Shown here one piece after another: positions 43,876-62,268 of a DNA stretch of 64,000 nucleotides. The number at the start of each line of letters is the position of its first letter. The first letter of the stretch is position 1. The translations under genes were made by a program, and so were the position numbers. Source of the stretch: an uncultured Bacilli bacterium (lineage in GTDB: Bacteria; Bacillota_I; Bacilli_A; RF39; UBA660); the NCBI GenBank assembly GCA_947628905.1, contig CANRBQ010000001.1:6900-70899 (forward strand), in the 5' to 3' direction. The notes under the pieces are model-generated. The model was not told the DNA's origin, did not search any database, and saw only the letters and a program-made list of their open reading frames with translations.

Positions 43876-44673
43876 TTAATCAACATTAACGCCTTTTTTG
43901 AATATTTTTATATCTATATAATAATAGATACTAATTAAAATGATATATAAGCATATTCCTAAAAATAACGCTGTTTTTACTATATCAACTGTAAGGGTAT
44001 TATTTATATTTGAGTTAAATAATGCCATAATATTTGGGTTAAATAAACCAATGATATAGATTATTAAAACTGATATTGCAACAACAAATAAATAGTTTAA
44101 AAATCCATAAAGAACTGATTTAGCCATTTTTAAATTGTTTGATCTATGGCCAAGGAGAATTCCGGTAAAACCAGCTTGTAAGATAGTAGTAAATTCTAAA
44201 AATAAACATAAGAAAGCTGTAATGATTACCTTTATGGTCGTACTATTCATAACTGTTGCAAAAAATTGTAAAGTGTTTTTTAATAATTCTAAATTATATT
44301 CAGAATAATACGCAATAAATATACATAATATAATAACTAATATACTGGTAAACATGGTAATAATAGAAGATAAAAATTTAGAAGTATAAATGGTATTTTT
44401 ACTTATTGGTAAAGTATGAGTTAAATAAGATTCATCGCCATAGATATTTTTAATGAATCTTGCCCATACCCGCATTAAATTATTTATCACTATACTAAAC
44501 ATAAAAGAAATTGTTGTTCCACTTGATATAAGGGCAATAATATGTAATATAAAAGAATTATCAAAATAGAATAAAACTCTTGTAAAACATGCAAATACTA
44601 TATCAATTAAATAAAATACTATTAAAACTTTATAAATATACTTTAAATCATATTTTAAACATTTACTTAACAT
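43876..44673 (-). CDS. ABC-2 type transporter permease (YtrCD-like)
   Basis: About 6 TM helices. Overlaps the upstream ATPase gene. Confidence 0.5.
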   Translation of the reverse strand: MLSKCLKYDLKYIYKVLIVFYLIDIVFACFTRVLFYFDNSFILHIIALISSGTTISFMFSIVINNLMRVWARFIKNIYGDESYLTHTLPISKNTIYTSKFLSSIITMFTSILVIILCIFIAYYSEYNLELLKNTLQFFATVMNSTTIKVIITAFLCLFLEFTTILQAGFTGILLGHRSNNLKMAKSVLYGFLNYLFVVAISVLIIYIIGLFNPNIMALFNSNINNTLTVDIVKTALFLGICLYIILISIYYYIDIKIFKKGVNVD

Positions 44674-45362
44674 TTAAACATCCTCCTAAATATTTCATCA
44701 ATAGAGCTATTTTCTTTTTCTCTTAACTTATCAGCATCAGAAGAAAGAATTATTTTTCCTTTATCAATAAAGATAACTTCATCAAGTATTCTTTCAATAT
44801 CGCTAATAAGATGAGTAGATATTATGATACTAGCATCTTCATTAAAATTATTTAAAATGGTATCTAGTATGTAATCTCTAGTGGCAGGATCAACACCACC
44901 TAAAGGTTCATCTAGTATATAAAGTTCGACATTTCTTGACATAACAAGGATAAGTTGTAATTTTTCTTGCATGCCTTTACTCATTTTAGATATTTTAGTG
45001 TCTATCTCTAAATCTAAATCTTTTATTAATTTCTTGGCTTTTTCTATATCAAAATTATCGTAAAAGTCTGTAAAATAATCAAGTGTTTGTTTGATTGTCA
45101 TACTTTTATCTAAATATGTTCTTTCAGGTAAATAAGATATAATTTTTTTACTTTCTATACCTACTTCTTTACCATTAACTAAAATTTCGCCACTTGTGGG
45201 AATAAGTAAGTCATTGATAAGTTTAATTAAAGTGGTTTTACCCATACCATTTTTTCCTAATAATCCTATAATTTTTCCTCTAGGTATTTTTAAGTTAATA
45301 TCTTTTAAGACTGGTTTTTTATCATAGCCTTTATAAATATGTTTACATTCTAATAATTCCAT
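44667..45362 (-). CDS. ABC transporter ATP-binding protein (YtrB-like)
   Basis: Walker A GKNGMGKTT, signature MSKGMQEK and Walker B ILDEP. Confidence 0.8.
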   Translation of the reverse strand: MELLECKHIYKGYDKKPVLKDINLKIPRGKIIGLLGKNGMGKTTLIKLINDLLIPTSGEILVNGKEVGIESKKIISYLPERTYLDKSMTIKQTLDYFTDFYDNFDIEKAKKLIKDLDLEIDTKISKMSKGMQEKLQLILVMSRNVELYILDEPLGGVDPATRDYILDTILNNFNEDASIIISTHLISDIERILDEVIFIDKGKIILSSDADKLREKENSSIDEIFRRMFKC

Positions 45363-45721
45363 TAAATACTCTCCTCCTTTAAAATTTCAATTATTTCTGG
45401 ATCTATAAATCCTAATTCTTGCATTTCATTTATATATTTTTTAGTTTTTTCTCTAGCATATTTATCTTTAAATTTATCTAATAACTTCTGGTCTTTAGTA
45501 ACATATTTTCCGTTTGTTCTTTCGGTATAAATAAGTTTTAAATCTTCAAGTTCGACAAGGGCTTTTTGCATGGTATTGGGATTTACTTTTGTCTTTAGGG
45601 CAAGCTCTCTTACTGATGGTAATTTTTCACCAGATTTTATTTGTCCTGAGATAATATATATTTCTAATTGTTCTACTAATTGAATATATATAGGTCTATC
45701 ATTATCAAATATAAAATTCAT
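45362..45721 (-). CDS. GntR-family (YtrA subfamily) transcriptional regulator
   Basis: 119-aa winged HTH (PSVRELALKTKVNPNTMQKAL) with only a short C-terminal helix. First gene of an operon with the ABC ATPase and permease. Confidence 0.7.
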   Translation of the reverse strand: MNFIFDNDRPIYIQLVEQLEIYIISGQIKSGEKLPSVRELALKTKVNPNTMQKALVELEDLKLIYTERTNGKYVTKDQKLLDKFKDKYAREKTKKYINEMQELGFIDPEIIEILKEESI

Positions 45722-45738
45722 AATAGCTCCTTTCTATA

Positions 45739-45760
45739 TTGTATTACTTGCTTAATACAA
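45739..45760. promoter_or_regulatory. perfect 8-bp inverted repeat operator candidate (TTGTATTA-N6-TAATACAA)
   Basis: 18-40 nt upstream of the ytrA-like start codon. Confidence 0.45.
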
Positions 45761-45820
45761 TAATATATTAAAAATTATAAAAAGTCAATAAAAAAGACTA
45801 TCAATTTTTATTTGATAATC

Positions 45821-46567
45821 TTAATTATTGCTTTCTTCTTTGACTTTCTTTAAGTCATAGATTACATCAACATTATTGCATACATTAGCGGAATGAGTAA
45901 CAATAATTACACATTTATTTTCTTCATGAGCTAATTTTTTAAATATATCTAAAATTTCAGTTTCGGTTTGTTTATCAAGATTACCTGTTGGTTCATCCGC
46001 GATTATCATTTTGGGATTATAAGATAAGCTTCTAGCAATTGCAACTCTTTGTTGTTCTCCACCCGATAATCTTAATACTTTACGATTGGCATAAGTTTCT
46101 TTTAAGCCAACTTTTGCCATGAGTTCGATGGCTCTTGCTTTTTTGTTTTTAATTTTTAGGCCATTTGCATCCATGGAAAGAATGATATTTTCACTGGCTG
46201 TCATAAAGGGTAACAAATTATAACTTTGAAAGACAATACCTATATCACTATTACGATACTTATCTAAATTCATATCTTTTAGACTTTTACCATCAAATAT
46301 GATTTCACCTTCAGTACATCTTTCAAGGCCACTTATTAAAGATAATAAGGTAGTTTTTCCTGTCCCACTTCGACCTCTTATGGCATACATTTTTCCACTT
46401 TCAAAATCAAAGCTAACATCTCTTAATGCATAATCGTTTTCTTCAGCATCACTATACCTGTAACTAGCATTTTTAATACTTAAAATTATATTTTTAGTAG
46501 AAGGATTTTTTTCTTTAATCGCTTTATTATCTTTTATTTCTTTTTCTTCATTATTTTTATTTGCCAT
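45821..46567 (-). CDS. ABC transporter ATP-binding protein (MacB/FtsE-like)
   Basis: Walker A GRSGTGKTT, signature LSGGEQQRVAIAR and Walker B IIADEPTGNLD. Confidence 0.85.
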   Translation of the reverse strand: MANKNNEEKEIKDNKAIKEKNPSTKNIILSIKNASYRYSDAEENDYALRDVSFDFESGKMYAIRGRSGTGKTTLLSLISGLERCTEGEIIFDGKSLKDMNLDKYRNSDIGIVFQSYNLLPFMTASENIILSMDANGLKIKNKKARAIELMAKVGLKETYANRKVLRLSGGEQQRVAIARSLSYNPKMIIADEPTGNLDKQTETEILDIFKKLAHEENKCVIIVTHSANVCNNVDVIYDLKKVKEESNN

Positions 46568-46569
46568 TT

Positions 46570-48033
46570 TTAAGACCTCTCTTTCAATATGGTAAGTGGT
46601 GAAAATCTTTCTATACTAACCATTGATGCAATAGAACTTACTAAGACAAGTGAAAGTCCAATTCCAAGTAATTCTAGTAAAACTTTAATATCTACTACTG
46701 CATCAATAGAGTCATAAGCTTCGACAACAGGCATACCTTTACCGCGCATTTCGCCCCTATTTCCACGATCAGGCATTCCACCATTCATAGCTCCGCCAAA
46801 GTTTTTATCTATTTCTTGAGCTTTTTCATTACTACTATTTATTTCATTTTCTAGTAAAGAATTACTTACTCCTTTAGAACTTACTGCTCCAATTCCGGCC
46901 CCAAGTATAAGAGCCACGACTGAAACAATAATAAGTTCTGATACAAACTGCATGGTTAATTTAAATTTACTAATACCAATTGTTCTTAAAACCCCTATTT
47001 CGTATTTTCTTTCACGAATATTTATCATATTAATTACAAATAAGACAATTCCACCAATAATAAGGGTTAAACTCAAAAATGTGGTTGCAAATGAATTAAT
47101 ATTTTCAATGCTTGATACGCCACTTAAGGCTAATTCTTCATTAGTTTGTAAGATAAAGTTTTCATCTAAACCTTTTTCATAAAATTCATCTTGAAGTTTT
47201 TCGACATTATCATAAGAATCGATAATAAAAGTTGGATTAATTGTCGCTTTTAAATCTTCATTACTGGTAGTAATTGCGGTAACAGCATTAGCATTTGTTA
47301 TAATCGTATTAGCAGAAGCAGAAAACATGGACATTGTATTGGTACTTTCTTCTTCATTTTCTTTAAATATACCAATTATTTCAAATTCATAGGTATTGCC
47401 ATCTTCATCTTCTAACATTATTTTATCATTTAAACCTAAATCATTATAACTGGCAAGTTCCTCATTAATAAATACATAGTTGCCAAGAAAGGCTATATCC
47501 CAAGCATTATCCGTGATTTCACTCATAGTATAAGTACCATTTATAAACTCACTCATAGCATCTAGGGAACTATAACCGGTTAAAGTAAAATCAGTAGATG
47601 ATAAATTATTTCCTTTACCATGACCAAAGCCAGTTGGCATATCATTATCTGATTCAATCTCGGCTTTTTCAATATTGTTGCCATTTAAGCCAACACCATA
47701 AGTATAATAATAGCTTTCTATATACTTACTATCGGCGAAAGATTCAACATCACTAATGGTGTAACTTGCAATATTATCAAATTTTTCTCGAGCATTTTCT
47801 CTTCCTTCACTTTGGGATGGATCAAAATCTTTCATCATATTTGCTCTATCAAAACTAATGGTTACTTCTTTATCATAAGCACTTTTATAGGAATCTATTA
47901 AATCAACCGCGGTATTTTTAATTGCCAGTGTTATAGTACAAGCACAAGCGATAATCAAAATAATTATTCCTATTAAAATATTCCTTCCTTTATTTCTTTT
48001 AATTGAAATCCAAGCATTTTTTAATATAAACAT
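46570..48033 (-). CDS. FtsX/MacB-type ABC permease with large extracytoplasmic domain
   Basis: N-terminal TM, an extracellular domain of about 250 aa and a C-terminal FtsX TM bundle. A Gly/Arg/Met-rich insertion of about 70 aa lies between the last two TM helices. Confidence 0.7.
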   Translation of the reverse strand: MFILKNAWISIKRNKGRNILIGIIILIIACACTITLAIKNTAVDLIDSYKSAYDKEVTISFDRANMMKDFDPSQSEGRENAREKFDNIASYTISDVESFADSKYIESYYYTYGVGLNGNNIEKAEIESDNDMPTGFGHGKGNNLSSTDFTLTGYSSLDAMSEFINGTYTMSEITDNAWDIAFLGNYVFINEELASYNDLGLNDKIMLEDEDGNTYEFEIIGIFKENEEESTNTMSMFSASANTIITNANAVTAITTSNEDLKATINPTFIIDSYDNVEKLQDEFYEKGLDENFILQTNEELALSGVSSIENINSFATTFLSLTLIIGGIVLFVINMINIRERKYEIGVLRTIGISKFKLTMQFVSELIIVSVVALILGAGIGAVSSKGVSNSLLENEINSSNEKAQEIDKNFGGAMNGGMPDRGNRGEMRGKGMPVVEAYDSIDAVVDIKVLLELLGIGLSLVLVSSIASMVSIERFSPLTILKERS

Positions 48034-48073
48034 AATTTTCCTCCTTAAAACAATATAATTTTATTATGTAAAT

Positions 48074-48095
48074 ATTAAAGAAACATTAAAAAACT
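48074..48095 (-). promoter_or_regulatory. direct-repeat motif site 1 (upstream of ftsX-ABC)
   Basis: TATTAAAGAAACATTAAAAAAC on the plus strand, about 40 nt upstream of the RBS AAGGAGG. Confidence 0.55.
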
Positions 48096-48139
48096 ATAAT
48101 TTTTTAAGAAAAAAAGAAAATGGTGAAGTTCCATTTCCT

Positions 48140-49396
48140 TTAAGATAGAGTAATTATAATATCTTTTTCTTTATATTCACGACCACTTACATAACTAATT
48201 GTTAAGGTTACTTTATCACCTTTATTTAATTCGTTTAAAACATTTTGTAAATCACTTAGACTAGTAACTTCATTACCATCTATTTTAGTAATAATATTAC
48301 CTATTTCTAGTTCTGATTTGTCTGCGCTACTTCCAGAAGTAATTTTAGAAATGTAAAATCCTATTGGCATATTATAATAGTTACTATCATTAACTATATA
48401 GCCTTCTATACCTAATGTTACACCTTCATCATTTTCACCATTCATAAGAGTAGTAATAAGTTCATTAACATCGGAAATTGGAATAGCAAACCCCATTCCT
48501 TCTACACTGGCATTAGAAGACGTGGCACTAGAAGAATATTTAGCAGAATTTATACCAACAATTTCACCACTGCTATTTAGTAAAGCTCCTCCACTATTAC
48601 CACCATTTATGGCAGCATCTAATTGAATCATTTTATTGGTATAATTATCGATGGAAACTTCTCTATTTAAAGCACTTACTACTCCGGTAGTAACAGATTG
48701 TCCATATCCTAAAGCATTACCAATAGCAATAATACCATTACCTACTTTTAATTTATTAGAATCTCCTAAAGTTGCTATTTTGATTTCATTTAAAGTATCA
48801 CTATCAAGATCATTTAAAGATACAGATATAATAGCGATGTCTTTTCTTTCGGAAGTACCTACAATTTTAGCATCATAACTTTTTTCATTTATAAATTGAA
48901 CAGATAATTCATTAGCACCTTCAACAACATGATTATTTGTTAAAATCATAAGATTTTCATCTGATTTACTAATAATTATTCCAGAGCCGGCACCTTCAGA
49001 ATACTTTTCTTCTCCAAAAAAATTAGGGCCAAATCTTCCAGATGAAATTAAAGTCTTACTGGTAATGGCAACGATAGATGGCATTACATTTTCTACAACT
49101 TCTGATACATCTGTAATATATATACCATTGTTATCACTATTATTAGTGCTAGTTGTTTCAGTATATTTTAGTTCTATTTTCTCTTTTTCAGTATTTTCTA
49201 AATTAACTTTTAATGTTGGATAAATTATCTTAAAAAAGGAAACAGATAAAATAACAATAATTAAAACCAATAAGATTATAATAATAGACAAAATAATATT
49301 TTTATTACTTTTCGGTTTAATAGTTCTTTTATTAGTCTTTTCTTCTATGGTTATGTTTTTATTAGAAAAAGTTTCTTCTTTTATATCTTTAGACAT
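48140..49396 (-). CDS. HtrA/DegP-family serine protease (trypsin domain plus PDZ), membrane anchored
   Basis: GNSGGAL catalytic Ser motif, His/Asp upstream and a C-terminal PDZ. Start set at MSKDIK (49396) after the motif, with RBS AAAGGTGAT. Confidence 0.8.
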   Translation of the reverse strand: MSKDIKEETFSNKNITIEEKTNKRTIKPKSNKNIILSIIIILLVLIIVILSVSFFKIIYPTLKVNLENTEKEKIELKYTETTSTNNSDNNGIYITDVSEVVENVMPSIVAITSKTLISSGRFGPNFFGEEKYSEGAGSGIIISKSDENLMILTNNHVVEGANELSVQFINEKSYDAKIVGTSERKDIAIISVSLNDLDSDTLNEIKIATLGDSNKLKVGNGIIAIGNALGYGQSVTTGVVSALNREVSIDNYTNKMIQLDAAINGGNSGGALLNSSGEIVGINSAKYSSSATSSNASVEGMGFAIPISDVNELITTLMNGENDEGVTLGIEGYIVNDSNYYNMPIGFYISKITSGSSADKSELEIGNIITKIDGNEVTSLSDLQNVLNELNKGDKVTLTISYVSGREYKEKDIIITLS

Positions 49397-49436
49397 ATTT
49401 ATCACCTTTCTTATGAAATAATCATAATATATAAAT

Positions 49437-49458
49437 ATTAAAGAAACATTAAAAAACA
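49437..49458 (-). promoter_or_regulatory. direct-repeat motif site 2 (upstream of htrA)
   Basis: TATTAAAGAAACATTAAAAAAC, identical to site 1. Confidence 0.55.
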
Positions 49459-49472
49459 TTAACTTTTTTCCG

Positions 49473-50702
49473 TTAATGTTCATTTATTTTAAATTTAACT
49501 TCAAAAGTAGTATATTCATCTTTGGAGTAAGCTTTAATATTACCATGATGGGATGTGACAATATTTTTAGCAATAGCAAGACCTAACCCATAACGGCCAC
49601 TTTTACGATTATGACTTTTATCATTCCGGTAGAATCTTTCAAATATTTTTTCACATTCATCGGGTGGTATTGGATCACCTTTATTAATTACTTCTAATTT
49701 TATTTCTGATTTGTTACTTATTAGATTAACTTTAATTGTACTATTTTCTTGGCCATGACTTATCGCATTATCAATTAAAATAGATACTAATTCATCTATA
49801 CTTTCTTTATGGCAAAGAAAGCTTATTTTTTCGGCTATATTGGTTTCGATAGTTATGTTTTTTTCGTAAGCTAAACTTTCAAATGTTAAGGCTCTTTTTT
49901 CAATAATTAGCGAAATATCATTTTTACTAAAGTTCTCTTTTTTTAAATATTCAGTTTTAGATAAATCAAGTAATCTTGTTATTAAATTACTCATTCTATC
50001 AGATTCACTTTTTAAATTATTAATCCATTTTTCATTTTTTTTATTCACATCTAAAGAATCTATATTGGCCATCATAACTGCCAGTGGGGTTTTAAGTTCA
50101 TGAGAGGCATTGGCAACAAATTCTTTTTCTCTATTAAAGCTCATCTCAACAGGTTTAGTAATCCATTCTGTTATTTTTTTAGATATAATATAAATAATAA
50201 ACTCACCAATAATAACTAATAATAAAGATATTAATAGATTAGTAAGTAACATATTTCTTGTGTTAGTTATATTTACAATAGTTAAAGAATTACTTTCTTC
50301 ATAATTGTAAGCATATTTATTCCAATATAAACAACCTATTTTTATTTTATTGGTATTATTAGCAATAATATTTTTAGCTTTAGTTATAATATCATCACTA
50401 ATTGGATTATCACTATGGCTTATTTTATCAATAATATCATTATTATCATTTAAAATAAAAGTATAAACTTCATAATCCATAACTTTTCTATTTCGAAGTT
50501 CATCATCATTTATTGGTTTCATTTCTTTATTAAAAGATTCAGGTCTTTTTATAGTTAAATTTCGCATTCTTGTTAAATTATTTAATATTCCTGTATATTC
50601 TCTATGGTAGGTTTGAATATTAAAAAAGCTAGCAAAAAACATAGCAAATAAAGAGATTATAATAAAAATTGTAAAAAATGTTTTCTTCTTTAAATTTTCC
50701 AT
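49473..50702 (-). CDS. sensor histidine kinase (CssS-like)
   Basis: Two TM helices flank an extracellular loop. HisKA motif ANASHELKTPLAVM and an HATPase_c domain. Confidence 0.85.
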   Translation of the reverse strand: MENLKKKTFFTIFIIISLFAMFFASFFNIQTYHREYTGILNNLTRMRNLTIKRPESFNKEMKPINDDELRNRKVMDYEVYTFILNDNNDIIDKISHSDNPISDDIITKAKNIIANNTNKIKIGCLYWNKYAYNYEESNSLTIVNITNTRNMLLTNLLISLLLVIIGEFIIYIISKKITEWITKPVEMSFNREKEFVANASHELKTPLAVMMANIDSLDVNKKNEKWINNLKSESDRMSNLITRLLDLSKTEYLKKENFSKNDISLIIEKRALTFESLAYEKNITIETNIAEKISFLCHKESIDELVSILIDNAISHGQENSTIKVNLISNKSEIKLEVINKGDPIPPDECEKIFERFYRNDKSHNRKSGRYGLGLAIAKNIVTSHHGNIKAYSKDEYTTFEVKFKINEH

Positions 50703-50708
50703 ATCTCT

Positions 50709-51386
50709 TTATTCCTCCATTTTATAACCTAAATTACGAACTGCTTTAATATTTACTTTTGAGCCAATAATTTTGATTTTCTTTCTTAAAAAAGAAAGGT
50801 AAGCTTCTAAATTATTAGATTCATAATCATTATCAATTCCCCAAACTTTATCATAAATTTGTTCCTTTGATACAATTTGTTCTTTATTATTCATAAAATA
50901 TTCAAGTAATAGAAATTCGCGATAAGGAATATTTATTGACTCATTTGTAATTGTACAAGTTAAAATAGAAGTTCTAATATTTAATGATAGATCACTATAT
51001 TCTAAAATATCTTTAATTTTATGATTACCCTTATTTCTTAATTGGACATTTACGCGAGCAATTAATTCTTCAATATGAAAAGGTTTGGTTACATAATCGT
51101 CTGCACCATTATTAAAGCCTTTTAATTTATCTTCTAATTCTGATTTGGCAGTAAGCATAATAACTTTAGCACTTATATCATTTTCTTTTATTTCTTTTAG
51201 TATTTCTATCCCATTCATTTTAGGTAACATGATATCAAGAATTATTAAATCATATATGTTAGATAAAGCATTATATAATCCATCTTCACCATCAAAACAA
51301 GTATCAACTTCATATTTTTCATATCGCAGTTTTGTTGCAATAACATCAGCGATTGCCTCTTCATCTTCAACAACTAAAATTCGCAT
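50709..51386 (-). CDS. OmpR-family response regulator (CssR-like)
   Basis: Receiver domain MRILVVEDEE...DLIILDIMLP plus a winged-helix C-terminal domain. Confidence 0.9.
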   Translation of the reverse strand: MRILVVEDEEAIADVIATKLRYEKYEVDTCFDGEDGLYNALSNIYDLIILDIMLPKMNGIEILKEIKENDISAKVIMLTAKSELEDKLKGFNNGADDYVTKPFHIEELIARVNVQLRNKGNHKIKDILEYSDLSLNIRTSILTCTITNESINIPYREFLLLEYFMNNKEQIVSKEQIYDKVWGIDNDYESNNLEAYLSFLRKKIKIIGSKVNIKAVRNLGYKMEE

Positions 51387-51512
51387 TTTACCACCTCTTA
51401 TCTTTTATTGCCAAATAAATTAATTGTTTAATTTATTTTAAAAGTTTCTGCATTATTTATCAATACTTTTTCTCCTTTGCTTTTTTAATAATTAAAGTAT
51501 ATATTATGAAAA

Positions 51513-51532
51513 TTAAAGAAACATTAAAAACA
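51513..51532 (-). promoter_or_regulatory. direct-repeat motif site 3 (upstream of the response-regulator gene)
   Basis: ATTAAAGAAACATTAAAAAC, one A shorter than sites 1 and 2. About 127 nt upstream of the response-regulator start. Confidence 0.5.
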
Positions 51533-51635
51533 TAAGTTATAACAATATTATTTTATAATAATTATATCAAATAATAAGTAAATTTTATATATAGTTTCTA
51601 TATAAAAAAAGCTCTCTTATTAAGAGAGACATTTT

Positions 51636-53147
51636 CTAATTAAATCTTTTTCTAAATTTATAAGCTCCACCGACACCTGCAATAGCACTAATTGCTAAAA
51701 CTATATATACTCCTATATTATCAGATGTACCTGGATTTTTTATATCTTGTTCATCTACTTTTACAAATTTAGCATATACTGTCATACTTTTTGAAATTGG
51801 ATTAGTAGTATAGAATAAATTTTCATATGTATCTTCTAAATACCAACCACTAAAAGCATAACCTTCTTTAGTAACTGTTGGAATATCTTTAGGATCTAAT
51901 ACTGCTCCTGCATCAACTCCTACTGATGTACTTTTACCATCATAAACAAATGTTACATAATATCTTGATGAAGAAGTGGAATTTTTAATAAATTTAGCAT
52001 AAACAGTTTTATCGGCAGTGATACTTGAAGTAGTACCAAATAAATTTTCATAAGTTTGGTCTTCATACCAACCAACAAATGTGTAACCACTTTTAGTAGG
52101 TTTTGGAATATCAGCTTCTGCTACTGCTGTATTATTTTTAACTAAAACAACATTATGCTTTCCATATACAACAAAGTCAACATAAAATTGGTCTTCTTCT
52201 CCCGAAATTAATTTTCCTGTTATAGTAGTATTTTCTGTTTCAAATGAATTATCATTTGTGTTATTAGCATTATATACAGCTCCGTAAGAGTCATTTGTAT
52301 TGCTAAGTGTAGAATCAGATACAGTTATTTGTGCTCCACTAGCTTTATCATTAGCATCGCTTATCAATATTAAATCACTTCTAGCAGTACCATAAGTAAA
52401 ATCATTTGTTATTGTGGAATTATTAGTTATATCAATTGTAACGCCTGTTTTATTACCAATAACTATAGTTCCAAAATTGTTATTATCGCCATTTCCAATA
52501 GCGTATCCTGTAAGAGTACTATGATTAATAGTAACTTTATTGCCTGATGTTGGGTTTGAACTTGAAGTTAAATCGAGGGCAGCATATCCAGAAAGTTCAC
52601 TATCTGTAACATTTAAATTACTATTGGAACTTGGAAGCCAAACAGCATATTTAGCGTGAATTTTAGAACTAGTAATGTTTATAGTTGAGCCATTTCCTGA
52701 TGAATTATTTACAACAATACCTGTACCATTATAAATATATTCTGATGGAGTATTATTATCTCCACTATAGATAGTTGCATTAGATATAGTTACATTAGCT
52801 GGGGTATCAACTGAAATTAATTTTGGAGCTTCTCCTCTACCAGGGTCAGTTGATGTTATTGTTAAATTATTAAAAGTAACATCAGTTGCTTCAGCAGTAA
52901 TAGTAAAAGTTCCATGCACTGTTGCTCCATTACCATTAATTGTAACGTTGCTACTAATTGTATATGTAGCGGTGTTATAAGTATTTCCTGAATCTAGTTC
53001 GATGACAGAACAACTACTTAAAGCAGTAGCTAAATCACTTTCATTAGTCGGATTACAATTTGGCGCTGCATATACATTGGACATTGCTACAATACCACTT
53101 AAACCAAAAGCAGCAAGAGCACCAAGTAATAAATTTTTCTTTTTCAT
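51636..53147 (-). CDS. cell-surface protein with signal peptide, beta-helix-like region, two Listeria-Bacteroides (Flg_new) repeats and a C-terminal sorting-signal-like anchor
   Basis: Signal peptide MKKKNLLLGALAAFGLSGIVAMSNVYA. A T/N/S-rich region with NxTI periodicity. Two Flg_new repeats (GYTFVGWYEDQTYENLF...TVYAKF and GYAFSGWYLEDTYENLF...TVYAKF). C-terminus NPGTS, then a hydrophobic stretch, then KFRKRFN. Confidence 0.7.
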   Translation of the reverse strand: MKKKNLLLGALAAFGLSGIVAMSNVYAAPNCNPTNESDLATALSSCSVIELDSGNTYNTATYTISSNVTINGNGATVHGTFTITAEATDVTFNNLTITSTDPGRGEAPKLISVDTPANVTISNATIYSGDNNTPSEYIYNGTGIVVNNSSGNGSTINITSSKIHAKYAVWLPSSNSNLNVTDSELSGYAALDLTSSSNPTSGNKVTINHSTLTGYAIGNGDNNNFGTIVIGNKTGVTIDITNNSTITNDFTYGTARSDLILISDANDKASGAQITVSDSTLSNTNDSYGAVYNANNTNDNSFETENTTITGKLISGEEDQFYVDFVVYGKHNVVLVKNNTAVAEADIPKPTKSGYTFVGWYEDQTYENLFGTTSSITADKTVYAKFIKNSTSSSRYYVTFVYDGKSTSVGVDAGAVLDPKDIPTVTKEGYAFSGWYLEDTYENLFYTTNPISKSMTVYAKFVKVDEQDIKNPGTSDNIGVYIVLAISAIAGVGGAYKFRKRFN

Positions 53148-53173
53148 TTCATTATTTCTCCTTTTTCATTTAT

Positions 53174-53201
53174 ATTATATAATATACCCCCCCCGCGTCA
53201 A
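53174..53201 (-). promoter_or_regulatory. promoter TTGACG-N16-TATAAT with a G8 homopolymeric tract in the spacer (phase-variation candidate)
   Basis: Minus-strand sequence: TTGACG at 53201-53196, C, G8 at 53194-53187, TATATTA, TATAAT at 53179-53174. RBS AAAGGAG and ATG at 53147. Confidence 0.6.
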
Positions 53202-53257
53202 TTTTTATTTTTAGTATCTTGACACATTTTGTGTATATTTTAAATTAAATGTTATAT

Positions 53258-54205
53258 TTATTTTTTTAATAGTCTTAACTTATCTTTCATTAAAAAAGCA
53301 TTATTAGTATTTATTTCTAAATTTTTTAAAAAAGCAAAAACTTCTTCTTCACTTATTACATTTTTATCATGAAAGCTTTCACTAATAGCGTCTTCTAAAG
53401 AAAAACCATAACCATAGTTACATCTACCTACTATTTCTGCTTGAAATTTATCTAAATAATCTTCTGTTATAGTACTATGATCTAACTTGGGTTGAGTTTC
53501 CATTATTTCCCATTTTAAAGTGGCAAGTTTTTCTCTTAATTCATCTCTTAGTTCATCAAGGCTTTTAGGAGAATTTTTAGCAATAGAATAGTTTTTACCA
53601 ATATTAAAATAAAATTTATTACCATATTGTTCTACACCTATTGGAACTATATCTACTCCTGTTTCTTTGGCCATTCTAACTGTGCCATTAAATATTTTCA
53701 TAACTACTAAATTAGGAGTTACATTCCAAGCTCCTTCAGGATAAATTAAAAGATTACCACCTTTATTTAATAATTCTATAGCCCGATTATAAGCAATTTT
53801 TCGATCTTCTCTATCTTTAGTTTCAAGTGGTATTACTCCATTCATTTTTAAGCCTTGATAAATAGGCATTTTATATAATATTCCAGGATCTCCTAACATT
53901 AAATAGGCTGGTTCATTAATAACTTGAAAGGTTCTTTGAATATCATTTCCTCCAATATGAGTACAAGCATATATTTTAGGTTTATTAGTTTTTATATGTT
54001 CATCTTTTATTACAACTATTTTTTCTTTAGATAACAACTCATCTATTTTAAGAATTAAAGAAACTAAAAAATAGATTCTTTTTCTTAAATTAATTCCTTT
54101 TAATTCTTGTCCATTACGATAATTTTCTTTTCTTAATTCTGAGTAATATTTTACTAATTCTTCAATTGCCATATTTCTTTTTTCTATTATATTTAATTTA
54201 TTCAT
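53258..54205 (-). CDS. lysophospholipid acyltransferase (PlsC/LPLAT) family protein
   Basis: HX4D motif (CTHIGGNDIQ) and PEGAW-like motif (YPEGAWN). Confidence 0.6.
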   Translation of the reverse strand: MNKLNIIEKRNMAIEELVKYYSELRKENYRNGQELKGINLRKRIYFLVSLILKIDELLSKEKIVVIKDEHIKTNKPKIYACTHIGGNDIQRTFQVINEPAYLMLGDPGILYKMPIYQGLKMNGVIPLETKDREDRKIAYNRAIELLNKGGNLLIYPEGAWNVTPNLVVMKIFNGTVRMAKETGVDIVPIGVEQYGNKFYFNIGKNYSIAKNSPKSLDELRDELREKLATLKWEIMETQPKLDHSTITEDYLDKFQAEIVGRCNYGYGFSLEDAISESFHDKNVISEEEVFAFLKNLEINTNNAFLMKDKLRLLKK

Positions 54206-61359: not shown

Positions 61360-62268
61360 TTAAACTTGTAAATATTTTCTATCAGTAAATTTATTAATTA
61401 AAGGAATAAAGAAACTGCTTAAAAGAATGGCAATATATACACCTTCATATTTAAATATTAAAGTAAAAATATAAGTTAATATACCTAAAATTAGACCATA
61501 TATAGTCATTCCCTTTTCATGATGAGGACCAGTTGTAAGATTGGCACCCATAAAAATTAAAGCAAAATAAACATAACCATTACAGATAATATTAATTAAT
61601 TCTGTATTTTTAAATAAGAAAATACTTATTAAGTTTAGAATAATAAAACTAATTATAGAAGTATAAGCAATATTTCTTTTATAAAATTTATTTAAACTTA
61701 AAATAATTAAACTGATAATAAGAATTAAAAGACTAGTATTAGCTAGACCCCCTACTCCATGACCAATAAAGATATCTGCGAGATTATAATTAAATTTATT
61801 TAATTTTTCTGCGATATTTAAATAAGAATAAGTGTTTAATAATAAACTTAATAAGATAATTATTCTTATTGTTGATTCTGAATTTATATTTAAATTATAT
61901 TTAGATATTAAATATTTAATTATAAATAAAGCAATAAATAAAATAAGAGGATACATATAAATATTACTATTAATAGAAATAGTACTAGTAACTGATAAAG
62001 AAATTAAAATATTTATTTTATAGTCTTCTTTAAAAAATTTAGATATTATAAAACCTATTAGAATACTAATAATATAGTAATATATAGGAATTAAAGCATT
62101 TTTAAAATTAATTAAGTTATTAAAATATAATAATAAACCATTTTTATAAAAGCCAAATATTAATAAAGGAATTAGGGCTATATAATAACTATTTATTAGA
62201 CTTTTGATATTTTTAGGATAATGTAAAACTGGTAATTTATTCATTTTTTCCTCCTTGTAGGTAATCAT
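61360..62268 (-). CDS. RnfD/NqrB-like polytopic membrane protein
   Basis: About 8-9 TM helices. It overlaps the upstream RnfC-like gene. The assignment rests mainly on context. Confidence 0.35.
   Translation of the reverse strand: MITYKEEKMNKLPVLHYPKNIKSLINSYYIALIPLLIFGFYKNGLLLYFNNLINFKNALIPIYYYIISILIGFIISKFFKEDYKINILISLSVTSTISINSNIYMYPLILFIALFIIKYLISKYNLNINSESTIRIIILLSLLLNTYSYLNIAEKLNKFNYNLADIFIGHGVGGLANTSLLILIISLIILSLNKFYKRNIAYTSIISFIILNLISIFLFKNTELINIICNGYVYFALIFMGANLTTGPHHEKGMTIYGLILGILTYIFTLIFKYEGVYIAILLSSFFIPLINKFTDRKYLQV

What the first reader, a model, noticed from the sequence alone, without database searches (positions are those of the whole stretch)
48074..51532. Conserved 20-22 nt direct-repeat motif upstream of three genes of a CssRS-like two-component system, HtrA and FtsX-ABC cluster
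TATTAAAGAAACATTAAAAAAC occurs at 48074-48095 and 49437-49458. The variant ATTAAAGAAACATTAAAAAC occurs at 51513-51532. Each copy lies upstream, on the coding (minus) strand, of a start codon with a good RBS: the FtsX permease, the HtrA protease and the OmpR-family response regulator. The motif is two roughly 10-bp direct repeats (ATTAAAGAAAC / ATTAAAAAAC), which is the architecture of OmpR/PhoB-family binding sites. This suggests the response regulator autoregulates and co-regulates the protease and the ABC transporter. That is a self-contained envelope or secretion-stress regulon analogous to B. subtilis CssRS-htrA/htrB.
Basis: partly seen in the sequence, partly recalled or inferred. Interest (0 to 1): 0.6.

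Follow-up and report, generated by a model that had tools for sequence, protein, structure and literature searches.

The report
CiaR-type regulator box before three operons
A 17-base direct repeat (TTTAAT-N5-TTTAAT) sits exactly 10 bases upstream of the -10 promoter element of three neighbouring operons (a two-component system, an HtrA protease and a MacB-type ABC exporter) in an uncultured gut Bacilli genome. It is most likely the activator site of the adjacent response regulator, so this is a real but ordinary regulon of the kind known from streptococcal CiaRH.

Summary
On the coding (minus) strand the motif is TTTAAT-GTTTC-TTTAAT, at 51528-51512, 49453-49437 and 48090-48074. In each case a -10-like hexamer follows after exactly 10 bp (TATACT, TATGAT, TAAAAT), then an RBS and the start of the response regulator (RR), htrA or ftsX. 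No -35 is present, and a terminator-like hairpin precedes each box, so these are three transcription units.

The box and -10 are conserved while the 10 bp between them drift in 10 related MAG loci. The box precedes ftsX, or htrA-ftsX where they are fused, in 10/10 TCS-linked loci, htrA in 5/5, and the RR operon in 8 of 9 loci whose upstream DNA is held. It also precedes htrA in 2 of 3 genomes where htrA is not next to the TCS. It is absent from an ftsX pair with no TCS beside it.

In more distant loci, 12/29 RRs with a CiaR-like recognition helix carry the same box upstream, against 0/35 with other helices.

This architecture matches the published CiaR box (TTTAAG-N5-TTTAAG, 10 bp from -10), not the CssR box. 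The RR is 39% identical to CiaR and 30% to CssR; the kinase sensor domain does not align with CiaH.

Verdict: a predicted class-II activator site and a new member of a known kind. Binding and the inducing signal are untested.

The parts
51512..51528 (-). Box 1: TTTAAT-GTTTC-TTTAAT upstream of the RR-HK operon
   Evidence: Exact match. It ends 125 nt before the RR ATG at 51386. It is conserved upstream of the RR operon in L001, L003, L202 and L205, and upstream of the gene that precedes the RR in L002, L005 and L007.
51496..51501 (-). -10-like hexamer TATACT, exactly 10 bp downstream of box 1
   Evidence: Read from the sequence. The same spacing was found at 27 of 33 compiled sites. No -35 match was found here by the sigma-70 scan.
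49437..49453 (-). Box 2: TTTAAT-GTTTC-TTTAAT upstream of htrA
   Evidence: Exact match. It ends 40 nt before the htrA ATG at 49396. It is conserved before htrA in L005, L007, L202 and L206, and before unlinked htrA in L207 and L209.
49421..49426 (-). -10-like hexamer TATGAT, 10 bp downstream of box 2
48074..48090 (-). Box 3: TTTAAT-GTTTC-TTTAAT upstream of ftsX-ATPase
   Evidence: Exact match. It ends 40 nt before the ftsX ATG at 48033. A box precedes ftsX (or the fused htrA-ftsX operon in L202) in all 10 TCS-linked loci: window, L001-L005, L007, L202, L205 and L206.
48058..48063 (-). -10 hexamer TAAAAT, 10 bp downstream of box 3
   Evidence: TAAAAT (TACAAT in L007, TAGAAT in L205) is kept at this position, while the 10 bp between box and hexamer differ among loci: ATTTACATAA, ATTTACGTAA, AATTTAATAA, GTTTACAGAA, ATTTACATCA, AAATTATTAA. 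This is a phylogenetic footprint.
50709..51386 (-). OmpR/PhoB-family response regulator (225 aa), recognition helix NNLEAYLSFLRKKI
   Evidence: Pfam Response_reg plus Trans_reg_C. 39% identical to CiaR and 30% to CssR.
49473..50702 (-). Sensor histidine kinase (409 aa): TM1, an extracytoplasmic domain of about 95 aa, TM2 running straight into DHp, then the catalytic domain
   Evidence: Pfam HisKA plus HATPase_c. AlphaFold model, mean pLDDT 77. Only the kinase core aligns with CiaH.
48140..49396 (-). Membrane-anchored HtrA/DegP-type serine protease (418 aa, one PDZ domain)
   Evidence: Pfam Trypsin_2 plus PDZ; NCBIfam Do-family.
46570..48033 (-). MacB-type (FtsX-fold, 4 TM) ABC permease with a large extracytoplasmic domain and a disordered Gly/Met/Arg-rich TM3-TM4 loop
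   Evidence: Pfam FtsX. AlphaFold model. Best Foldseek hits are 5xu1 (S. pneumoniae Spr0694-0695), MacB, LolCDE and YtrEF.
45821..46567 (-). ABC ATPase of the MacB/LolD/FtsE type, partner of the permease
   Evidence: Pfam ABC_tran; NCBIfam best hits are the lactococcin-972-type exporter, LolD and FtsE.
51612..51628 (-). Terminator-like hairpin plus T-run that ends the upstream surface-protein gene, before box 1
49454..49481 (-). Hairpin GAACAUUAAC-N8-GUUAAUGUUC over the HK stop codon, followed by a U-run that runs into box 2. Probably a weak terminator of the RR-HK operon.
   Evidence: -9.7 kcal/mol, z = -3.3. Conserved in L001-L005, with a C-to-T change in L004 that keeps a G-U pair.
48113..48141 (-). 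Terminator-like hairpin plus T-run after htrA, before box 3
51435..51463 (-). Possible second, box-independent promoter (TTGATA-17-TAAAAT) inside the 125-nt RR leader
   Evidence: Consensus scan, 10 of 12 matches. It is not conserved in L001 or L003, which have short leaders, so it is speculative.

Best explanation
The motif is the DNA-binding box of the adjacent OmpR-family response regulator.

Inferred mechanism:
1. The phosphorylated RR binds as a head-to-tail dimer to the two TTTAAT hexamers, whose centres are 11 bp apart (one helical turn).
2. With the -10 taken as -12 to -7, the box spans about -39 to -23. It therefore occupies the place of the missing -35 element.
3. From that position the RR recruits RNA polymerase, i.e. 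class-II activation as described for CiaR and PhoB.
4. Three separate transcription units, each preceded by a terminator-like hairpin, are switched on together: RR-HK (positive autoregulation), htrA (extracytoplasmic protein quality control) and ftsX-ATPase (a MacB-type exporter).
5. The kinase, with an extracytoplasmic domain of about 95 aa of unknown ligand, supplies the signal, presumably some form of envelope or secretion stress.

Shown here: the existence, position, orientation and conservation of the box; its co-occurrence with this RR family; and its match to the CiaR promoter architecture.

Inferred, not shown: binding, the direction of regulation (activation), and the signal.
For: 1. 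Three exact copies, far above chance.
2. Fixed geometry. Box, then 10 bp, then TAnnnT, then an RBS and start codon, always in the orientation of the downstream gene. The best -10 lies at offset 10 in 27 of 33 compiled sites. By contrast only 2 of 119 chance occurrences of the same 17-mer in unrelated metagenome contigs have TAnnnT there.
3. No sigma-70 -35 at any of the three promoters, as expected for activator-dependent promoters.
4. Phylogenetic footprint. The box and -10 are kept while the 10-bp linker and the flanks diverge across loci whose HK is 63-87% identical, and across loci L202 and L205, whose FtsX is 67-68% identical.
5. The box follows the genes. It precedes htrA only where htrA is present. 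A single box precedes the fused htrA-ftsX operon in L202. It sits in front of whichever gene heads the RR operon.
6. Trans evidence. htrA genes not adjacent to any TCS keep the box at the same spacing in L207 and L209, i.e. 2 of 3. An ftsX-ATPase pair with no TCS next to it (L204) has none.
7. Family-level association. Among 64 non-orthologous TCS loci, 12 of 29 RRs with the helix N[NS]xE[VA][YF]xSFxRKK carry .TTAA[GTC]-N5-TTTAA[GTC] within 250 bp upstream. None of 35 with other helices do (Fisher p = 1.6e-5). Shuffles expect 0.2, with a maximum of 3 in 2000.
8. Published CiaR box: TTTAAG-N5-TTTAAG with -10 ten bp downstream, shown by transcript mapping, in vitro binding and in vivo expression (PMC3091779). 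I read the same layout in the pneumococcal ciaR promoter, GTTGAG-TTTTT-TTTAAG-N10-TATAAT. A CiaR-like RR of B. anthracis binds this box in EMSA (PMC4938410).
9. The RR is 39% identical to CiaR; its DNA-binding domain scores 162 against CiaR, 128 against DrrD and 83 against CssR.
Against: - There is no experimental binding, footprint, transcription start site or expression data for this organism.
- RR-CiaR similarity is modest (33% in the DNA-binding domain).
- A similar recognition helix (NVVESYVSYLRRKI) occurs in M. tuberculosis PhoP, which by my own knowledge binds a different repeat. Helix similarity alone therefore does not fix specificity.
- The final G of each CiaR hexamer is reported to be extremely important for activation. 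Here it is T.
- The spacer GTTTC is also invariant among the close relatives. That could mean recent common ancestry rather than selection on the hexamers alone, although the spacer does vary in L202, L205, L207, L209 and the distant loci.
- 17 of 29 loci with the CiaR-like helix show no box upstream of the RR, one RR operon (L004) lacks it, and one unlinked htrA (L208) lacks it.
- The box positions in the distant set were selected by the search pattern. Only the -10 spacing and the association with helix class are independent of that selection.
Confidence: 0.8

Rival explanations
1. The box is bound by the adjacent RR but acts as an operator for repression. By overlapping the -35 region it would block RNA polymerase, and the genes would be de-repressed when the RR is inactive.
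For: The box overlaps the core promoter, about -39 to -23, a position from which some regulators repress. Nothing in the sequence alone fixes the sign of regulation.
Against: None of the promoters has a recognisable -35, so they should be weak without an activator. The identical layout in streptococci is reported for strongly CiaR-activated promoters (PMC3091779). Positive autoregulation from such sites is common in the PhoB/OmpR family (own knowledge).
Confidence: 0.08
2. The box is recognised by some other factor encoded elsewhere, such as a different regulator or an alternative sigma factor using part of it as a -35. Its proximity to the TCS would then be incidental.
For: No binding data exist. 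The spacer GTTTC and the flanking T-run are conserved among close relatives, so the recognised element could be something other than the two hexamers.
Against: The box co-occurs with this TCS in more than 10 genomes, and with RRs of one recognition-helix class across Clostridia, Bacilli and Izemoplasma, but with none of 35 other TCSs. In those distant loci the spacer varies freely while the hexamers and the 10-bp distance to -10 stay fixed. That fits a dimeric winged-helix protein and not a sigma -35 element. An ftsX pair without a neighbouring TCS has no box.
Confidence: 0.07
3. The repeats are non-functional remnants of duplicated promoter or terminator cassettes, or AT-rich sequence acting only as a terminator U-tract or as bent DNA.
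For: At the htrA site the 5' flank of the box is the 3' arm and U-run of the HK terminator hairpin. htrA looks like an insert that brought or copied a promoter cassette. The genome is 26% GC.
Against: The exact 17-mer is expected about 7e-4 times in the window. The loose pattern is not enriched, but the exact box is. The box survives where the flanks have diverged, and it is found without any hairpin at box 1, box 3, L007, L207 and L209. Chance copies of the same 17-mer elsewhere lack the -10 partner, 2 of 119. No Rfam family matches the region.
Confidence: 0.05

Closest known systems
CiaRH two-component system and CiaR box of Streptococcus (S. pneumoniae R6 CiaR, CIAR_STRR6)
   Same: - OmpR-family RR.
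- Direct repeat of two TTTAAx hexamers separated by 5 bp.
- -10 element exactly 10 bp downstream and no -35.
- The TCS operon itself and htrA are among the targets (PMC3091779; PMC4938410; ciaR promoter read).
- The RR is 39% identical overall, and the recognition helix shares the xEVYxSxxRKKx pattern.
   Different: - The hexamer ends in T (TTTAAT), not the G reported as critical for CiaR.
- RR identity is far below the 88% or more seen among the streptococcal CiaR proteins quoted from Table 1 of PMC3091779.
- The HK sensor domain does not align with CiaH.
- The conserved core target is a MacB-type ABC exporter, which by my own knowledge is not part of the described pneumococcal CiaR regulon.
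- No csRNA gene is present in the window.
BAS0540-BAS0541 of Bacillus anthracis (CiaRH-like TCS)
   Same: It is a non-streptococcal Firmicute RR that binds NTTAAG-N5-TTTAAG in EMSA, including upstream of its own gene and of an efflux-transporter adaptor gene (PMC4938410). This shows that the box type extends beyond Streptococcus.
   Different: Its predicted regulon does not include htrA.
CssRS-htrA/htrB secretion-stress system of Bacillus subtilis
   Same: The logic is the same: an OmpR-family TCS whose kinase has an extracytoplasmic domain, which autoregulates and induces membrane-anchored HtrA-type proteases.
   Different: The RR is only 30% identical (86 bits, against 169 bits for CiaR). 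The CssR boxes TTTTCATTTTATCCCA / TTTTCACAATTTCCCA are unrelated to TTTAAT-N5-TTTAAT (PMC6057675 S3 Fig). No ABC exporter is described in the CssR regulon (own knowledge).
MacB-type (type VII) ABC exporters of Gram-positives, e.g. S. pneumoniae Spr0694-0695 (PDB 5xu1), B. subtilis YtrEF and YknYZ
   Same: The permease has the 4-TM FtsX fold with a large extracytoplasmic domain between TM1 and TM2. Best Foldseek hit is 5xu1 at E = 1e-13, followed by MacB, LolCDE and YtrEF. The ATPase is of the LolD/MacB/FtsE type.
   Different: Sequence identity is only 10-15%. The Pfam MacB_PCD domain is not detected. There is an unusual disordered Gly/Met/Arg-rich TM3-TM4 loop, residues 412-448. No adaptor (MFP) gene is in the locus. 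The substrate is unknown.
Bce-type peptide-antibiotic sensing/detoxification modules (BceRS-BceAB)
   Same: An OmpR-family TCS is genetically linked to, and predicted to induce, an FtsX-domain ABC transporter.
   Different: BceB permeases have 10 TM helices and about 650 aa, and their kinases are intramembrane-sensing with no extracytoplasmic domain (own knowledge). Here the permease has 4 TM and 487 aa, and the kinase has an extracytoplasmic domain of about 95 aa. BceAB structures rank only at positions 28-42 in the fold search, with TM-scores of 0.20-0.33.

Membership tests
OmpR/PhoB-family response regulator with a direct-repeat site | Receiver domain plus winged-helix Trans_reg_C output domain | tested here: met
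   Pfam PF00072 (1e-29) and PF00486 (5e-19). Full-length matches to DrrD, PhoP and RegX3 structures.
OmpR/PhoB-family response regulator with a direct-repeat site | Binding site made of tandem direct repeats about one helical turn apart, overlapping or replacing the -35 | tested here: met
   TTTAAT hexamers have an 11-bp period. The box ends 10 bp before the -10, and no -35 is found. Binding itself was not tested.
CiaRH-type regulon (Streptococcus) | Box of two TTTAAG hexamers separated by 5 bp | tested here: inconclusive
   The hexamer spacing and five of six positions match. The sixth base is T (sometimes C) instead of the G reported as extremely important.
CiaRH-type regulon (Streptococcus) | -10 element exactly 10 bp downstream of the second hexamer | tested here: met
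   3 of 3 sites in the window and 27 of 33 compiled sites. The published search rule uses a distance of ten. The pneumococcal ciaR promoter was read directly.
CiaRH-type regulon (Streptococcus) | RR orthologous to CiaR (streptococcal CiaR proteins quoted from Table 1 of PMC3091779 are 88% or more identical; recognition helix VVEVYVSKVRKKL nearly invariant) | tested here: not met
   39% identity overall and 33% in the DNA-binding domain. The helix NLEAYLSFLRKKI shares 6 of 13 residues. It is a distant relative, not an orthologue by this measure.
CiaRH-type regulon (Streptococcus) | Kinase orthologous to CiaH, including the sensor domain | tested here: not met
   Only the DHp/catalytic core aligns (31% over 235 aa). 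The N-terminal sensor regions do not align.
CiaRH-type regulon (Streptococcus) | htrA and the TCS operon itself among the direct targets | tested here: met
   A box lies upstream of both in the window and in relatives. This is a site prediction, not expression data.
CiaRH-type regulon (Streptococcus) | csRNA genes: box, -10, a short non-coding transcript and a terminator | tested here: not met
   None among the three boxes of the window, and the rest of the genome is not available. A csRNA-like candidate exists in the distantly related locus L013.
CssRS secretion-stress system (B. subtilis) | CssR box (TTTTCAT/C ... TCCCA tandem) | tested here: not met
   The published boxes bear no resemblance to TTTAAT-N5-TTTAAT.
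CssRS secretion-stress system (B. subtilis) | RR orthologous to CssR | tested here: not met
   30% identity and 86 bits, weaker than to CiaR (169 bits) or DrrD.
CssRS secretion-stress system (B. subtilis) | Kinase orthologous to CssS | not tested
Bce-type TCS/ABC detoxification module | 10-TM BceB-type permease and an intramembrane-sensing kinase without an extracytoplasmic domain | tested here: not met
   The permease model has 4 TM helices and the kinase model has an extracytoplasmic alpha/beta domain at residues about 52-145. BceAB structures rank low in the fold search.
MacB-type (type VII) ABC exporter | FtsX-fold permease with 4 TM helices and a large extracytoplasmic domain between TM1 and TM2, paired with a MacB/LolD-type ATPase | tested here: met
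   Pfam FtsX. Foldseek probability 1.00 to 5xu1, MacB, LolCDE and YtrEF. ATPase family hits.

The most novel reading that the evidence does not exclude
The CiaR-type promoter module (two TTTAAx hexamers, 5-bp spacer, -10 ten bp downstream) would not be a streptococcal peculiarity. It would be the shared cis-code of a large, mostly undescribed subfamily of OmpR-type regulators (recognition helix NNxE[VA]YxSFxRKK) spread over uncultured gut Bacilli, Clostridia, Christensenellales and Izemoplasma.

In this reading the outputs are rewired lineage by lineage: a MacB-type exporter, HtrA, Cthe_2159 beta-helix proteins, VTC/DUF4956 and possibly csRNA-like small RNAs. The sixth hexamer base, G in CiaR, would be free to vary.

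The window would then be one well-resolved example, in which an htrA cassette carrying its own copy of the box has been gained or lost between the kinase gene and the exporter genes.
Probability: 0.5. Interest if true: 0.45.

Novelty: new member of a known kind. Interest (0 to 1): 0.3.

Why it matters
It gives a concrete, testable regulon for an uncultured, low-GC gut Bacilli lineage known only from MAGs: a defined box, three promoters and a cognate regulator. It also links an envelope protease to a MacB-type exporter under one sensor.

It shows that the CiaR promoter architecture can be recognised by sequence alone far outside Streptococcus. That would allow regulon prediction (box, 10 bp, -10) in many Firmicute MAGs.

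It does not change any concept. Autoregulated OmpR-family systems that drive htrA from direct repeats are textbook.

Tried and rejected
- **Exact look-up of the window's HK on public contigs:** nothing on record, so the source contig could not be extended.
- **Scan of metagenome contigs for the exact 17-mer:** It could not define a regulon and was used as a negative control for the -10 spacing.
- **Loose pattern TTTAAK-N5-TTTAAK with 1 mismatch in the window:** not enriched, so weak sites cannot be called from sequence alone.
- **Small leader peptide in the RR leader (TTG ATA AAT ... TAA, 11 codons):** rejected. The leader insert is absent from L001 and L003. The TTG is better read as the TTGATA -35 of a possible second promoter.
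- **Third upstream half-site (GTTAATG):** rejected. It is present only where the HK terminator hairpin supplies it.
- **CATAAT as the ftsX -10:** rejected. It is not conserved, whereas TAAAAT 10 bp from the box is.
- **CssR box and Bce-type module:** tested and not met.
- **Rfam:** no known RNA family in 45000-54000.
- **NCBIfam:** no equivalog reached its cut-off for the RR, HK, HtrA or ATPase, and nothing matched the permease.
- **Fold search of the kinase model:** not run, because the kinase core would dominate the matches and the sensor domain cannot be submitted alone.

Full report
**1. The observation**

The window is 26% GC. In 45.8-51.6 kb all genes lie on the minus strand:
- OmpR-family response regulator (RR), 50709-51386
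- histidine kinase (HK), 49473-50702
- membrane-anchored HtrA protease, 48140-49396
- FtsX-domain permease, 46570-48033
- ABC ATPase, 45821-46567

Read on the coding strand, the shared core is the 17-mer TTTAAT-GTTTC-TTTAAT, at 48090-48074, 49453-49437 and 51528-51512.

Chance does not explain it:
- Shuffles of the window give 0.23 matches to the 20-mer at up to 3 mismatches, and never 5.
- By my arithmetic the exact 17-mer is expected about 7e-4 times in the window.
- The degenerate pattern with one mismatch is not enriched (42 against 40.8), so the signal is the exact box and not AT-richness.

**2. Anatomy**

An alignment of the three upstream regions shows an invariant block of about 19 nt, with divergence on both sides.

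After each box come exactly 10 bp and then a -10-like hexamer:

| Box | -10 hexamer | Coordinates |
|---|---|---|
| RR | TATACT | 51501-51496 |
| htrA | TATGAT | 49426-49421 |
| ftsX | TAAAAT | 48063-48058 |

A Shine-Dalgarno sequence and the start codon follow, 40, 40 and 125 nt after the box.

The sigma-70 consensus scan finds no -35/-10 pair at any of these positions. These promoters therefore have a -10 but no -35, with the box in its place (about -39 to -23).

Each box is preceded by a terminator-like hairpin:
- 51628-51612, after the upstream surface-protein gene
- 49481-49454, over the HK stop codon (-9.7 kcal/mol, z = -3.3)
- 48141-48113, after htrA

The locus is thus three transcription units, each starting with the same box. 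In the window no other site combines an exact box, a -10 at 10 bp and a downstream start codon. The nearest candidate, at 62106, lies inside an ORF.

**3. Relatives**

The HK has many homologues of 58-100% identity in unnamed gut-metagenome proteins. A scan of species-representative genomes returned seven orthologous loci, L001-L007 (HK 63-87% identical). They are mostly 'uncultured Bacilli bacterium' MAGs from rabbit gut. After them identity drops to 38% or less.

Gene order is RR-HK-[htrA]-ftsX-ATPase. Among the window and L001-L007, htrA is present only in the window, L005 and L007. Look-ups with more distant FtsX and HtrA homologues added L202/L203, L205 and L206 (TCS-linked), L204 (ftsX-ATPase without a TCS) and L207-L209 (htrA without a TCS).

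Where the box is found:
- **ftsX:** upstream of ftsX, or of the fused htrA-ftsX operon in L202, in all 10 TCS-linked loci.
- **htrA:** upstream in all 5 TCS-linked loci that have htrA.
- **RR operon:** upstream in 8 of the 9 loci whose upstream DNA is held. In L002 and L007 it sits before a Cthe_2159-like beta-helix protein gene that precedes the RR. In L005 it sits before an arylsulfotransferase gene. L004 lacks it.

The box and the -10 are constant while the 10-bp linker changes: ATTTACATAA, ATTTACGTAA, AATTTAATAA, GTTTACAGAA, ATTTACATCA, AAATTATTAA. This footprint also rules out the alternative -10 CATAAT.

In the more distant L202, L205, L207 and L209 the spacer inside the box changes (GTTAT, GTTTT, ATTAT, GTTCT, ATTTA), but the hexamers and the 10-bp distance do not.

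Three observations separate the box from mere local context:
- Two of three htrA genes with no TCS nearby (L207, L209) still carry the box at the right distance.
- The ftsX pair with no TCS nearby (L204) has none.
- Of 119 chance copies of the same 17-mer in unrelated metagenome contigs, only 2 have TAnnnT 10 bp downstream.

**4. Link to the regulator family**

In the 64 non-orthologous TCS loci from the same scan, I extracted the RR recognition helix. I then searched the 250 bp upstream of each RR for .TTAA[GTC]-N5-TTTAA[GTC].
- 12 of 29 RRs with a helix of the type NNxE[VA]YxSFxRKK have the box. The window RR reads NNLEAYLSFLRKKI.
- In 10 of these 12 a TAnnnT hexamer follows after exactly 10 bp; L027 and L041 are the exceptions.
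- None of 35 RRs with other helices has the box (Fisher p = 1.6e-5).
- Shuffled upstream regions give 0.2 hits on average, with a maximum of 3 in 2000 trials.

The positive loci come from Clostridium, Christensenellales, other Clostridia and Candidatus Izemoplasma. Their upstream regions are 14-50% GC.

Two further cases fit. L061, with an RR 57% identical, has TTTAATGTTCGTTTAAT after its HK, in front of VTC, DUF4956 and Cthe_2159 genes. L009 has a box on the opposite strand next to its RR.

Caveat: the hexamers in this distant set are fixed by the search pattern. The independent evidence is the -10 spacing and the helix-class association.

**5. Comparison with known systems**

*CiaR.* The literature gives the CiaR box as TTTAAG-N5-TTTAAG, later refined to NTTAAG-N5-TTTAAG. 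It was established by transcript mapping, in vitro binding and in vivo expression. In the published search rule the -10 lies ten bp after the second hexamer, the final G is described as extremely important, and the recognition helix is VVEVYVSKVRKKL (PMC3091779).

A CiaR-like RR of B. anthracis binds the same box in EMSA, including at its own promoter (PMC4938410).

I confirmed that my recalled CiaR and CssR sequences are exact database entries. I also fetched a pneumococcal ciaRH locus. Its promoter reads GTTGAG-TTTTT-TTTAAG-GCAAATTTGG-TATAAT.

How the window RR compares with CiaR and CssR:

| Comparison | CiaR | CssR |
|---|---|---|
| Overall identity | 39% | 30% |
| Bit score | 169 | 86 |
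| DNA-binding domain score | 162 | 83 |

*CssR.* The B. subtilis CssR boxes, TTTTCATTTTATCCCA / TTTTCACAATTTCCCA (PMC6057675 S3 Fig), are unrelated to the motif here.

*Limits of the CiaR match.* The RR is not a clear CiaR orthologue:
- T. maritima DrrD scores as high overall, through the receiver domain.
- M. tuberculosis PhoP has a similar helix.
- The HK aligns with CiaH only in the kinase core.

The system therefore works like CiaRH. It fails two of the orthology tests and differs at the sixth hexamer base.

**6. The outputs**

*HtrA* is a typical single-PDZ, N-terminally anchored Gram-positive HtrA.

*The permease.* The model (mean pLDDT 73.5) has four TM helices. A domain of about 240 residues lies between TM1 and TM2, and a disordered Gly/Met/Arg-rich loop lies between TM3 and TM4. 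Foldseek places it with MacB-type exporters: S. pneumoniae Spr0694-0695 (5xu1, E = 1e-13), MacB, LolCDE and YtrEF. BceAB ranks far lower. Sequence-level matches are weak.

*The ATPase* is of the MacB/LolD/FtsE type.

*The kinase.* The model (mean pLDDT 77) shows TM1, a small alpha/beta extracytoplasmic domain (about residues 52-145, with residues 53-74 at low confidence) and TM2 continuing directly into the DHp helix, without a HAMP domain. The ligand is unknown.

All accessory targets seen in relatives are exported or membrane proteins. This fits an envelope or secretion-stress role but does not prove it.

**7. Mechanism and rivals**

*Best explanation* (confidence about 0.8): the phosphorylated RR binds the two hexamers as a tandem dimer. 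It activates the three -35-less promoters in class-II fashion. The result is positive autoregulation plus induction of htrA and of the exporter.

*Rivals:*
- The same protein acts as a repressor (0.08). The missing -35 elements and the CiaR precedent argue against this.
- A different factor or sigma recognises the element (0.07). The family-level co-occurrence and the variable spacer argue against this.
- The repeats are non-functional duplicated cassettes or terminator and AT-tract sequence (0.05). The footprint, the unlinked htrA sites and the 2/119 control argue against this.

No known RNA family overlaps the region.

**8. Verdict**

The label should be CiaR-type rather than CssRS-like, and the regulon is not shown to be self-contained.

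It is a new member of a known kind, in an uncultured lineage. It is useful for regulon prediction in MAGs but conceptually ordinary. Interest 0.3.

The most novel reading still open is that this box and spacing form the common cis-code of a broad, undescribed CiaR-like regulator subfamily across Firmicutes, with rewired outputs (probability about 0.5).

Noticed in passing
L013:6796-6907 (minus strand): Convergent with the HK of a distantly related TCS (RR 42% identical) lies TTTAATGTTCATTTAAT-N10-TAATAT. It is followed by about 75 nt with no ORF, three hairpins, a UCCCCU loop (anti-Shine-Dalgarno-like) and a GC-rich terminator with U7 (-21.2 kcal/mol, z = -3.0). No Rfam family matches. It looks like a CiaR-dependent csRNA-type small RNA outside Streptococcus.
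   Followed up: partly
L204:7815-8005: An ftsX-ATPase pair (FtsX 68% identical) sits directly after rplM-rpsI, with no two-component system nearby and no box upstream. The exporter is therefore not always under this control.
   Followed up: partly
L207:5924-5940 and L209:5945-5961; L208:5855-6005: htrA homologues (67-73% identical) that are not next to any TCS. Two keep the box 10 bp upstream of a -10. One (L208) has a plain promoter instead.
   Followed up: yes
L005:4506-4745 and L206:638-877: A 79-aa Thioredoxin_3 protein gene is inserted between the box and htrA, so it would be co-induced with the protease. This hints at a link to extracytoplasmic disulfide or protein folding.
   Followed up: no
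L002:3429-5298, L007:2784-5306, L005:647-2421, L061:2668-5633, L205:10244-11284: Variable accessory genes lie behind the same box, or next to the locus: membrane-anchored Cthe_2159-type beta-helix proteins with Met/Pro/Gly/Asn-rich low-complexity segments, an arylsulfotransferase, and a VTC plus DUF4956 pair.
   Followed up: partly
window 46570-48033 (protein residues 412-448): The permease has a disordered Gly/Met/Arg-rich loop (GGAMNGGMPDRGNRGEMRGKGMP) between TM3 and TM4. Similar Gly/Met-rich tails occur in the box-controlled Cthe_2159 lipoprotein of L061 (GGPGGRGGMGPQGGMGPQG). Its meaning is unknown; metal binding is one idea.
   Followed up: no
window 51387-51511: The RR leader in this genome is 125 nt, against 30-60 nt in L001 and L003. 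The extra sequence contains a sigma-70-like TTGATA-17-TAAAAT (51463-51435) and a perfect 11-bp A/T hairpin, AAATAAATTAA-N4-TTAATTTATTT. This may be a second, constitutive promoter or an attenuator.
   Followed up: partly
window 43876-45800: Immediately downstream lies a separate GntR(YtrA-like)-ABC ATPase-membrane protein operon. It has its own promoter (TTGACT-17-TATTAT, 45788-45760) and a palindrome, TGTATTA-N6-TAATACA, just before the RBS. That is a likely autorepressor operator and a second small transporter module.
   Followed up: no
L006, L007 record titles: Two of the orthologous low-GC (26-28%) loci are deposited as 'uncultured Muribaculaceae' MAGs, although their genes match the Bacilli MAGs at 63-87%. 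This is probably a binning or labelling error.
   Followed up: no
window 51636-53147: The gene upstream of box 1 encodes a 503-aa secreted protein with Listeria-Bacteroides repeats and a C-terminal anchor. It has its own strong promoter (TTGACG-16-TATAAT, 53201-53174) and terminator, and it is not box-controlled.
   Followed up: no
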